In this document: piece after piece, positions 57,500 to 57,587 of the stretch
How positions within the stretch are numbered: the stretch's first letter is position 1
How the letters are laid out: each line of letters begins with the position of its first letter
From: Escherichia coli
GTDB lineage: Bacteria > Pseudomonadota > Gammaproteobacteria > Enterobacterales > Enterobacteriaceae
Direction: 5' to 3' (one strand)
Assembly: GCF_030013595.1 (NCBI RefSeq)
Contig: NZ_CP122768.1
DNA: 64,000 nucleotides
Made by a program: the position numbers and the translations under genes
The notes under the pieces: generated by a model
Told to the model about the DNA's origin: nothing
The model's database searches: none
What the model saw: only the letters and a program-made list of their open reading frames with translations

Positions 57500-57587
57500 T
57501 ATCTTCTCAAACTAAATAAAGACAGCAGCAACCCCTGCGTGACATGACGCATTAATATTAAAAGCCACTGCTGTCTTTGGTTACATC

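What the first reader, a model, noticed from the sequence alone, without database searches (positions are those of the whole stretch)
57518..57578. 11-bp inverted repeat in the short tpsA-tpsB intergenic spacer
Seen in sequence: AAAGACAGCAG (57518-57528) and CTGCTGTCTTT (57568-57578) are perfect reverse complements separated by 39 nt, inside the 88-bp gap between the exoprotein and transporter genes. Inference: on the minus-strand mRNA this forms a stem-loop that could act as a partial terminator or processing site setting the TpsA:TpsB expression ratio.
Basis: partly seen in the sequence, partly recalled or inferred. Interest (0 to 1): 0.35.

Follow-up and report, generated by a model that had tools for sequence, protein, structure and literature searches.

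The report
Conserved mRNA hairpin between otpA and otpB
The inverted repeat is real and marks an evolutionarily conserved RNA hairpin lying just after the secreted-protein gene otpA and just before its transporter gene otpB in O157-type E. coli; it most likely acts as a leaky transcription stop and mRNA-end protector, so that more exoprotein message than transporter message accumulates, which is an ordinary kind of operon-tuning element that had not been described for this locus.

Summary
Observation confirmed. AAAGACAGCAG (57518-57528) and CTGCTGTCTTT (57568-57578) are perfect reverse complements 39 nt apart, inside the 88-nt gap between a TpsA gene (57588-61400, -) and a TpsB gene (55880-57499, -). 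This pair is the OtpA/OtpB two-partner secretion system of E. coli O157:H7.

The repeat is not a chance match or a mobile repeat. Every orthologous tpsA-tpsB spacer I recovered (27 distinct, at least 12 genera, OtpB identity 44-84%) has a hairpin at the same place with the same core. Six stem positions show compensatory changes. There are 11 G·U cells on the mRNA strand and none that would be G·U on the other strand. 25 of 27 spacers have a U-rich tail. Two loci that keep tpsB but lack an upstream tpsA lack the hairpin.

In Enterobacter the hairpin is followed by T7-T9, and in several genera it is a compact canonical terminator. The E. coli form has an enlarged 39-nt loop with an inner hairpin.

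Best reading: a leaky intrinsic terminator and 3'-end protector that uncouples otpA mRNA from otpB plus a downstream lipid-synthesis operon. Function is inferred; I found no transcript data. It is a new member of a known kind and of modest interest.

The parts
57518..57578 (-). Whole compound hairpin on the otpA-otpB mRNA (61 nt): 11-bp core stem, 7-pair G·U-rich extension, 9-nt bulge and a 5-bp inner hairpin.
   Evidence: RNA folds (hairpin alone -27.1 kcal/mol). RNAalifold consensus. Covariance model R1 hits only this site in the window.
57568..57578 (-). 5' arm of the core stem as read on the mRNA (AAAGACAGCAG).
   Evidence: Pair counts.
57518..57528 (-). 3' arm of the core stem as read on the mRNA (CUGCUGUCUUU).
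   Evidence: Pair counts.
57561..57567 (-). 5' side of the stem extension (UGGCUUU). It pairs with GGGGUUG (57529-57535), mostly through G·U pairs, so this extension exists only on the mRNA strand.
   Evidence: MFE and centroid structures. Sense -27.9 versus antisense -20.9 kcal/mol.
57529..57535 (-). 3' side of the stem extension (GGGGUUG).
   Evidence: CAGGG(G/A) is conserved in the E. coli-near clade.
57536..57551 (-). Inner hairpin UGCGU-CAUGUC-ACGCA at the tip of the loop. It is present only in the E. coli-near clade.
   Evidence: The E. coli strain SNP C->T falls in its loop.
57509..57517 (-). U-rich tail after the stem (AUUUAGUUU). Together with the UUU at the stem base this reads UUUAUUUAGUUU directly after the GC core.
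   Evidence: 6 of 8 T after the GC core, TransTermHP-style tail score -4.63.
57503..57508 (-). Weak Shine-Dalgarno-like GAGAAG of otpB, not sequestered by the hairpin.
   Evidence: GAG is invariant in the long-loop alignment. It is unpaired in the folds.
57579..57590 (-). otpA stop codon UAA plus the invariant GAUGUAACC that leads into the stem. GUAA is invariant in all 13 long-loop spacers.
57588..61400 (-). otpA (TpsA exoprotein, 1270 aa).
   Evidence: Pfam TPS 3e-41 and Fil_haemagg 2.5e-14. RefSeq annotation. otpAB = ECs1282-1283.
55880..57499 (-). otpB (TpsB transporter, 539 aa).
   Evidence: Pfam ShlB 4.6e-68, POTRA_2 and POTRA_3. Annotation.

Best explanation
The repeat encodes an RNA hairpin at the 3' end of the otpA cistron. 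It starts 9 nt after the otpA stop codon and ends 18 nt before the otpB start codon.

I propose that it works as a leaky intrinsic terminator. RNA polymerase pauses on the U-rich stretch (UUUAUUUAGUUU), the GC core (GACAGCAG/CUGCUGUC) forms, and a fraction of transcripts end there. The same hairpin then shields the 3' end of the otpA message from 3'-5' exonucleases.

The polymerases that read through supply otpB and the tightly packed downstream genes: acpS-like, SDR, FabZ-like, ACP, GCV_T-like, ketosynthases, ABC transporter and LolA-like. The net effect is more mRNA for the exported passenger protein than for its catalytic outer-membrane transporter and the enzymes.

Shown: the hairpin exists, is selected for pairing on the mRNA strand, is tied to the presence of tpsA upstream, and carries a U-rich tail.
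Inferred: termination itself, its leakiness, and the effect on the TpsA:TpsB ratio.
For: 1. Conservation of place. All 27 distinct orthologous tpsA-tpsB spacers (48-90 nt; E. coli, Enterobacter, Kosakonia, Mixta, Izhakiella, Buttiauxella, Klebsiella, Leclercia, Silvania, Rahnella, Pantoea, Serratia, Tenebrionibacter, Aeromonas, Acinetobacter) hold a hairpin with the core AAAG(G/A)CAGCAG...CUGCUG(C/U)CUUU or AAAAGCAGC...GCUGCUUUU.

2. Pairing is selected.
- 97.9% of cells are paired and 2 pairs carry double changes in the 13 long-loop spacers. Slid-register controls give 30-69%.
- Over 27 spacers the pair types are: position 4 GC16/AU10/GU1; position 5 GC23/AU4; position 7 AU25/GC1/GU1; position 8 GC26/AU1; position 9 CG22/UG4/UA1; position 11 GC17/AU3.
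- RNAalifold finds the same 11 pairs unaided.

3. Strand.
- There are 11 G·U cells on the sense strand and no A·C cell within the stem.
- The sense fold is more stable than the antisense fold in 22 of 28 spacers.

4. Terminator anatomy.
- 25 of 27 spacers have at least 5 T in the 8 nt after the GC core, against a background T fraction of 0.29. The mean tail score is -4.4.
- Enterobacter cloacae, E. sichuanensis and E. mori have T7-T9.
- The simple terminator scan calls the hairpin on the sense strand in Mixta theicola, Tenebrionibacter and Mixta tenebrionis.

5. Natural control. Two Kosakonia loci keep tpsB and the lipid genes but have no tpsA upstream, and they have no hairpin.

6. Termination must be leaky.
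- Only 18 nt separate the hairpin from the otpB ATG.
- No promoter-like site on the minus strand lies in the spacer.
- Downstream genes are 0-35 nt apart on the same strand.

7. An unrelated tpsA-then-tpsB family (TpsB about 31% identical) also has a GC-rich hairpin of unrelated sequence right after tpsA.

8. Within E. coli, 380 genomes carry the spacer, 368 of them at 99% identity or more. The SNPs in three variant strains fall outside the 11-bp core.
Against: - The E. coli hairpin has a 39-nt loop, well outside the 3-8 nt of canonical terminators. The pattern scan does not call it on the minus strand.
- Its first three U pair with the upstream A-tract, so part of the 'U-tail' signal could be stem extension rather than a release site.
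- Some orthologues have poor tails after the full stem (Rahnella L016, Pantoea L017, Kosakonia cowanii L022).
- 2 of 5 hairpins in the second TPS family have no U-tract at all. This suggests that the shared function may be the hairpin as such (a decay barrier) rather than termination.
- I could find no RNA-seq, Term-seq or Northern data for this locus.
- The original OtpAB papers could not be read.
Confidence: 0.55

Rival explanations
1. Pure decay barrier or processing element with no termination. The operon is transcribed through, an endonuclease (RNase E) cuts downstream in or near otpB, 3'-5' exonucleases chew back and stall at the hairpin, and a long-lived otpA message is left. This is the malE-malF or puf type of differential decay.
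For: - The hairpin is stable (-27 kcal/mol) and sits directly 3' of the first cistron.
- Its large loop is unfavourable for termination.
- In the second tpsA-then-tpsB family, 2 of 5 hairpins lack a U-tract, as do some compact orthologues when the full stem is counted.
- Protective 3' structures that set operon stoichiometry are common and conserved in Enterobacteria (PMC5927463).
Against: - U-richness beyond what pairs with the A-tract is frequent, and extreme in Enterobacter at T7-T9. A pure exonuclease block does not need this.
- 3 of the 5 short-loop orthologues scanned match the canonical terminator pattern on the sense strand.
Confidence: 0.25
2. Element acting on otpB rather than otpA. 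It could be a 5' stem-loop that stabilises the downstream otpB-lipid mRNA after cleavage upstream of it (papBA type), or a structured or U-rich platform next to a weak Shine-Dalgarno that tunes otpB translation.
For: - The distance from the hairpin to the otpB ATG is nearly constant, mostly 13-22 nt.
- The U-rich stretch and the weak GAGA/AGGA Shine-Dalgarno follow immediately.
- papBA-like 5' protective hairpins are known (PMC5927463).
Against: - The Shine-Dalgarno and the AUG are unpaired in all folds.
- RNAalifold finds no conserved helix that involves the otpB start.
- Kosakonia loci with tpsB but no upstream tpsA lack the hairpin, so it is not an intrinsic part of the tpsB leader.
Confidence: 0.08
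3. A short upstream ORF inside the loop is translationally coupled to otpB. An AUG in the loop opens a 17-codon frame (MRHVTQGLLLSLFSLRR) whose UAA overlaps the otpB AUG as UAAUG. Its translation would melt the 3' arm and deliver ribosomes to otpB.
For: The AUG and the open frame ending at or 3 nt before the otpB AUG are present in the window and in all four distinct close relatives (71-84% OtpB identity).
Against: - There is no Shine-Dalgarno ahead of it.
- It is absent from every spacer outside the E. coli-near clade, including the other long-loop spacers.
- Substitutions among the five sequences fall 6/4/6 on codon positions 1/2/3, so there is no coding signature (counted).
- The short-loop relatives have no room for it.
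Confidence: 0.03
4. DNA-level element: a palindromic protein-binding site, an internal promoter for otpB, or a REP/MITE-like mobile repeat.
For: The repeat is palindromic in DNA. The AT-rich loop contains -10-like hexamers.
Against: - The spacing between the arms varies from 3 to 39 nt among orthologues, which a dimeric DNA-binding protein would not tolerate.
- The G·U-only pattern of mismatches is strand-specific.
- The scan finds no promoter-like site on the minus strand in the spacer.
- There is one copy per genome in 380 E. coli genomes, no other copy in the window, and no Rfam family.
Confidence: 0.03

Closest known systems
Intra-operon intrinsic (Rho-independent) terminators or attenuators placed after a highly expressed structural gene, for example after the major-subunit gene in chaperone-usher fimbrial operons (pap, fim). 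Recalled from general knowledge, not tested here.
   Same: A GC-rich stem followed by a U-rich tract, preceded by a matching A-tract. It lies immediately after the first, structural cistron, with co-directional genes that need read-through following at once. The expected outcome is an excess of structural-gene mRNA.
   Different: The E. coli version has a 39-nt loop with a G·U-rich extension and an inner hairpin instead of a 3-8 nt loop. Termination has not been measured. The stem sequence is unusually well conserved across genera.
Intercistronic protective 3' stem-loops (mRNA decay terminators): the malE-malF REP hairpins and the Rhodobacter puf intercistronic stem-loop. See also the genome-wide class described by Dar and Sorek 2018 (PMC5927463).
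   Same: A stable hairpin at the 3' boundary of the upstream, more abundant cistron. It is conserved between enterobacterial genera and is predicted to set operon stoichiometry.
   Different: It is not a REP element, since it is single copy. It lies in the spacer rather than inside the downstream coding region, where most of the Dar and Sorek structures lie. It carries a U-tail that such barriers do not need.
papBA-type RNase E processing with a hairpin that protects the downstream message.
   Same: A hairpin in an intercistronic region of an adhesin-type operon.
   Different: In papBA the downstream cistron is the stabilised one. Here the hairpin tracks the upstream tpsA gene and disappears when tpsA is absent.
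OtpA/OtpB two-partner secretion system of E. coli O157:H7 (Choi, Dawson and Bernstein 2007; ECs1282-1283).
   Same: The two flanking genes are this system. The spacer is 100% identical in O157:H7 genomes, the domain content matches, and a fimbrial locus is adjacent.
   Different: The texts I could read (PMC5422565 and bioRxiv 10.1101/2020.04.13.038984) treat the proteins and do not mention the intergenic hairpin. The primary papers were not available to me.

Membership tests
Intrinsic (Rho-independent) terminator | GC-rich stem of about 5-14 bp | tested here: met
   The 11-bp perfect stem has a GC core GACAGCAG/CUGCUGUC. It is conserved with compensatory changes.
Intrinsic (Rho-independent) terminator | Short loop (3-8 nt) | tested here: not met
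   The loop between the perfect arms is 39 nt in E. coli, so the pattern scan does not call it on the minus strand. The feature is met in orthologues with 3-8 nt loops.
Intrinsic (Rho-independent) terminator | U-tract immediately 3' of the stem | tested here: met
   UUUAUUUA follows the GC core (6 of 8 U, tail score -4.63). 25 of 27 orthologous spacers have at least 5 of 8. Caveat: the first 3 U can pair with the A-tract.
Intrinsic (Rho-independent) terminator | Transcript 3' ends in the U-tract; termination in vitro | not testable with these tools
   No transcript data found.
Protective 3' stem-loop (mRNA decay terminator) | Stable structure at the 3' boundary of the stabilised cistron, conserved in related genera | tested here: met
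   -27.9 kcal/mol, z = -3.5. Present in 27 of 27 orthologous spacers.
Protective 3' stem-loop (mRNA decay terminator) | Longer half-life of the upstream segment; 3' ends at the base of the hairpin | not testable with these tools
   Needs a rifampicin chase and 3'-end mapping.
REP/BIME or other dispersed palindromic repeats | Many copies per genome | tested here: not met
   One place per genome in 380 E. coli genomes. No second copy in the window.
Any curated Rfam family | Covariance-model match | tested here: not met
   No match in 52000-64000 at E <= 1 apart from a chance miRNA-model hit at 61660-61714.
Two-partner secretion operon (for the flanking genes) | TpsA with an N-terminal TPS domain, and TpsB with POTRA domains and a ShlB barrel | tested here: met
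   Pfam hits.
Leader or upstream ORF coupled to the downstream gene | ORF conserved across relatives with a coding substitution pattern and a ribosome-binding site | tested here: not met
   Found only in the E. coli-near clade. Substitutions fall 6/4/6 by codon position. No Shine-Dalgarno.

The most novel reading that the evidence does not exclude
The stem is conserved in sequence (GGCAGCAG/CUGCUGCC) from Acinetobacter and Aeromonas to E. coli, and an invariant GUAA lies just 5' of it. This could mean that the hairpin is more than a passive terminator. It might be the binding site of a specific factor, or a ribosome-distance-sensitive switch, that makes read-through conditional. Expression of the transporter OtpB and of the 13-gene lipid-synthesis and export module would then be coupled to production or translation of the exoprotein OtpA. 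That would be a dedicated antitermination checkpoint in a TPS-lipid operon.
Probability: 0.08. Interest if true: 0.6.

Novelty: new member of a known kind. Interest (0 to 1): 0.3.

Why it matters
TpsA passengers are made in bulk, while the TpsB channel is needed in small amounts. How tpsA-first operons achieve this is not discussed in the TPS review I could read.

A hairpin conserved at the tpsA/tpsB boundary across at least 12 genera, and found again with unrelated sequence in a second tpsA-first family, gives a simple and testable answer.

It also marks the boundary between otpA and a long, strictly syntenic lipid-synthesis and export operon. OtpA's function is listed as unknown, so this link may be the better clue to what the system does.

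Practically, anyone who expresses otpAB or annotates this O157 island should expect an otpA-only transcript.

Tried and rejected
1. Mobile or dispersed repeat: rejected because the element is single copy.
2. Known RNA family: none in Rfam.
3. Small ORF in the loop coupled to otpB through UAAUG: confined to the E. coli-near clade and without a coding signature.
4. A long-range helix between the otpA stop region and the otpB start, seen in the single-sequence fold: not conserved.
5. A promoter inside the spacer: none on the minus strand, and the loop sequences are not conserved between clades.
6. RNase III substrate: the compact orthologues have only 11-16 bp stems, so this cannot be the shared function.
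7. The first genome-contig scan with the single OtpB protein found nothing. The scan with an alignment worked.
8. The primary OtpAB papers (PMC1855909, PMC3107007) are not held.
9. Literature searches for locus tags, TPS intergenic terminators and EHEC Term-seq gave no transcript information for this locus.
10. Variation within E. coli is too low for covariation: 368 of 380 genomes are at 99% identity or more.

Full report
**What is there**

The + strand reads AAAGACAGCAG at 57518-57528 and CTGCTGTCTTT at 57568-57578. These are perfect reverse complements with 39 nt between them. They lie in the 88-nt gap (57500-57587) between two minus-strand genes.
- The upstream gene is a 1270-aa protein with a TPS secretion domain and haemagglutinin repeats (57588-61400).
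- The downstream gene is a 539-aa protein with POTRA_2, POTRA_3 and ShlB domains (55880-57499).

The window is E. coli. The 2.4-kb region occurs in 381 of 5426 complete genomes, including O157:H7 and O55:H7. It is annotated as a two-partner secretion pair next to a fimbrial operon. This matches otpAB (ECs1282-1283) of O157:H7, whose passenger OtpA has no known function. The locus probably lies in O-island 47, although I did not verify the island borders.

**Is it more than chance?**

One 11-bp perfect inverted repeat somewhere in 64 kb is not remarkable. Dinucleotide shuffles give 0.89 +/- 0.91 such repeats, and the window has 6. One inside a given 88-nt spacer is expected about 0.001 times.

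On the mRNA (minus) strand the spacer folds at -27.9 kcal/mol (z = -3.5, 0 of 200 shuffles as good). The antisense strand gives -20.9. The difference comes from a 7-pair, mostly G·U, extension of the stem, which exists only in the sense RNA.

The full structure is 61 nt. It consists of:
- an 11-bp core stem;
- the 7-pair extension (UGGCUUU with GGGGUUG);
- a 9-nt bulge;
- a 5-bp inner hairpin (UGCGU/ACGCA).

**Comparative evidence**

Variation within E. coli is too low to be informative: 368 of 380 copies are at 99% identity or more, with one copy per genome. The few SNPs in variant strains fall in the loop or the extension, never in the 11-bp core.

I therefore collected OtpB orthologues in three steps.
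- A protein search gave relatives from 84% down to about 45% identity.
- Four closer relatives (84, 76, 76 and 71%) and five more were retrieved with their flanks.
- A profile scan of one genome per species returned 23 orthologous loci.

In every locus with tpsA upstream of tpsB, the spacer (48-90 nt) contains a hairpin at the same place. There are 27 distinct spacers, from E. coli, Enterobacter, Kosakonia, Mixta, Izhakiella, Buttiauxella, Klebsiella, Leclercia, Silvania, Rahnella, Pantoea, Serratia, Tenebrionibacter, Aeromonas and Acinetobacter. The hairpin starts mostly 5-18 nt after the stop codon and ends mostly 13-22 nt before the ATG. Its core is AAAG(G/A)CAGCAG...CTGCTG(C/T)CTTT or AAAAGCAGC...GCTGCTTTT.

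The loop is the variable part.
- It is about 39 nt in E. coli and its near relatives, Enterobacter, Mixta mediterraneensis and Izhakiella.
- It is 3-8 nt in most of the others.

**Pairing is under selection, on the mRNA strand**

On the 13 long-loop spacers, 97.9% of cells pair, against 30-69% when the partner is slid by 1-3 columns. Two pairs show changes on both sides.
- Position 5 is A-U in E. coli, L082 and L083, and G-C elsewhere.
- Position 8 is A-U in Izhakiella, and G-C elsewhere.

RNAalifold returns the same 11 pairs unaided and finds no other conserved helix in the spacer.

A register-anchored table over all 27 spacers adds further compensatory changes:

| Stem position | Pair types |
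|---|---|
| 4 | GC 16, AU 10, GU 1 |
| 7 | AU 25, GC 1, GU 1 |
| 9 | CG 22, UG 4, UA 1 |
| 11 | GC 17, AU 3 |

All intermediates are G·U on the sense strand (11 cells). No A·C cell occurs within the stem. The sense strand folds better than the antisense strand in 22 of 28 cases.

A covariance model built from the long-loop alignment hits only the tpsA-tpsB spacers of orthologues. It finds nothing elsewhere in the window, nor in 14 loci of unrelated TPS systems.

There is also a natural control. Two Kosakonia loci keep tpsB and the downstream genes but have no tpsA upstream, and they have no hairpin. The element therefore belongs to the 3' end of tpsA, not to the leader of tpsB.

**What it most likely does**

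The anatomy is that of an intrinsic terminator with a matching A-tract.
- 25 of 27 spacers have at least 5 T in the 8 nt after the GC core, against a background T fraction of 0.29. The mean TransTermHP-style tail score is -4.4, and E. coli scores -4.63.
- Enterobacter species have T7-T9.
- A simple pattern scan calls the hairpin as a sense-strand terminator in three of the five short-loop orthologues tested.

Termination cannot be complete, for three reasons.
- Only 18 nt separate the hairpin from the otpB ATG.
- No promoter-like site lies there on the minus strand.
- otpB and the following genes are packed 0-35 nt apart on the same strand.

I therefore favour a leaky terminator whose hairpin also protects the otpA 3' end. 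The result would be more otpA message than otpB message. otpB also has only a weak GAGA-type Shine-Dalgarno.

The main rival is a pure decay barrier of the malE-malF or puf kind (PMC5927463). Three observations favour it.
- The E. coli loop (39 nt) is far from canonical, and the scan does not call the hairpin.
- Some compact orthologues have poor tails once the full stem is counted.
- In a second, unrelated tpsA-first family (TpsA about 700 aa, TpsB about 31% identical), a GC-rich hairpin of unrelated sequence follows tpsA in all five distinct loci, but only three of them have a U-tract.

Both readings predict the same outcome, an excess of tpsA mRNA. Only transcript mapping can separate them.

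**Rejected ideas**

- A dispersed repeat: the element is single copy.
- A known RNA family: none in Rfam.
- A DNA operator: the arm spacing varies from 3 to 39 nt and the mismatches are strand-specific.
- An internal promoter.
- A 17-codon ORF in the loop whose UAA overlaps the otpB AUG: it is restricted to the E. coli-near clade, has no Shine-Dalgarno, and its substitutions fall 6/4/6 over the codon positions.
- A long-range helix that closes over the otpB start: seen in one fold but not conserved.

**Comparison and novelty**

The element works like the intra-operon terminators and protective hairpins that set stoichiometry in many operons. It is not a REP element and matches no curated family.

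Neither the TPS review nor the other texts I could read mention it. The primary OtpAB papers were not available, so I cannot exclude that the stem-loop was noted there.

I rate it a new member of a known kind. It is real, conserved and testable, but unsurprising. Interest 0.3.

The most novel reading not excluded is that the sequence-conserved stem and the invariant GUAA 5' of it form a specific, conditional antitermination site that couples otpB and the lipid genes to OtpA production (probability about 0.08).

**Context worth recording**

In 31 of 32 OtpB-orthologue loci, tpsB is followed in the same order by an acpS-like gene, an SDR, a FabZ-like dehydratase, a GCV_T-like protein and a double ketosynthase. 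An ACP gene lies between the dehydratase and the GCV_T-like gene in the 10 loci with gene calls. In E. coli the cluster continues with an ABC transporter and a LolA-like protein.

These genes are better conserved than OtpA and OtpB. The fimbrial neighbour is not always present, for example in L084. The functional partner of OtpAB is thus more likely this lipid module than the fimbriae.

A second intercistronic hairpin follows the GCV_T-like gene in E. coli (within 52597-52669). Many orthologues have one too, with unrelated sequences.

Noticed in passing
window 43009-57499 (- strand); loci L002-L022, L025, L034, L082-L091: otpB is followed without a break by an acpS-like PPTase, an SDR, a FabZ-like dehydratase, an ACP, a GCV_T-like protein, an 852-aa double ketosynthase and a second ketosynthase. 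In E. coli an ABC transporter and a LolA-like protein follow. The acpS-like, SDR, FabZ-like, GCV_T-like and double-ketosynthase genes follow tpsB in the same order in 31 of 32 OtpB-orthologue loci, from Acinetobacter and Aeromonas to E. coli. These lipid genes are better conserved (70-95%) than OtpA and OtpB. This suggests that OtpAB works with a lipid or polyketide-like product rather than with the neighbouring fimbriae.
   Followed up: partly
window 52597-52669 (- strand), between the GCV_T-like gene and the 852-aa ketosynthase: A second intercistronic hairpin (GCCGCGUGA...UUACGCGGC, 9 bp) lies in the 73-nt gap (86-nt fold -25.4 kcal/mol, z = -2.4). Many orthologues have a hairpin at the same boundary with unrelated sequences (for example L082, L083, L085, L004, L022, L025). 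This points to a second expression step in the operon.
   Followed up: partly
window 61663-61713, about 260 nt upstream of the otpA start: A perfect 16-bp inverted repeat with a 19-nt loop (-30 kcal/mol, z = -7, stable on both strands). It drew a sub-threshold chance hit to an Rfam miRNA model. It is only weakly kept in the 84% relative (12 nt, 92%) and absent in more distant ones. It could be a terminator that insulates otpA from upstream, or a 5'-UTR element.
   Followed up: partly
loci L023, L024, L026, L027, L028, L030, L078 (about 80-130 nt upstream of tpsB): A different tpsA-first TPS family (TpsA about 700 aa with a Pfam TPS domain; TpsB about 31% identical to OtpB) also carries a GC-rich hairpin right after the tpsA stop. 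The stem sequences are unrelated. 3 of 5 distinct loci have a U-tract and 2 do not. A hairpin after tpsA may be a general feature of tpsA-first operons.
   Followed up: partly
window 57579-57590 (- strand): UAA-GAUGUAACC between the otpA stop and the stem is invariant in the E. coli-near clade, and GUAA is invariant in all 13 long-loop spacers. In Enterobacter the same stretch reads TAA-TTTA-TAA-GGTG-TAA, which puts stop codons in all three frames just ahead of the hairpin. No explanation was tested.
   Followed up: no
window 57498-57552 (- strand): A 17-codon ORF (MRHVTQGLLLSLFSLRR) starts at an AUG in the hairpin loop and ends in a UAA that overlaps the otpB AUG (UAAUG). It is kept in the four closest relatives only and has no coding signature.
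   Followed up: yes
window 61401-62790: About 1.4 kb of AT-rich sequence without a long ORF lies between otpA and the divergently oriented 207-aa gene and fimbrial operon. It looks like a large regulatory region.
   Followed up: no
loci L011 and L015 (Kosakonia quasisacchari and K. pseudosacchari): These loci have tpsB and the same lipid cluster but no tpsA immediately upstream, and no hairpin. Either tpsA was lost or it lies elsewhere. Here they served as a natural control.
   Followed up: partly
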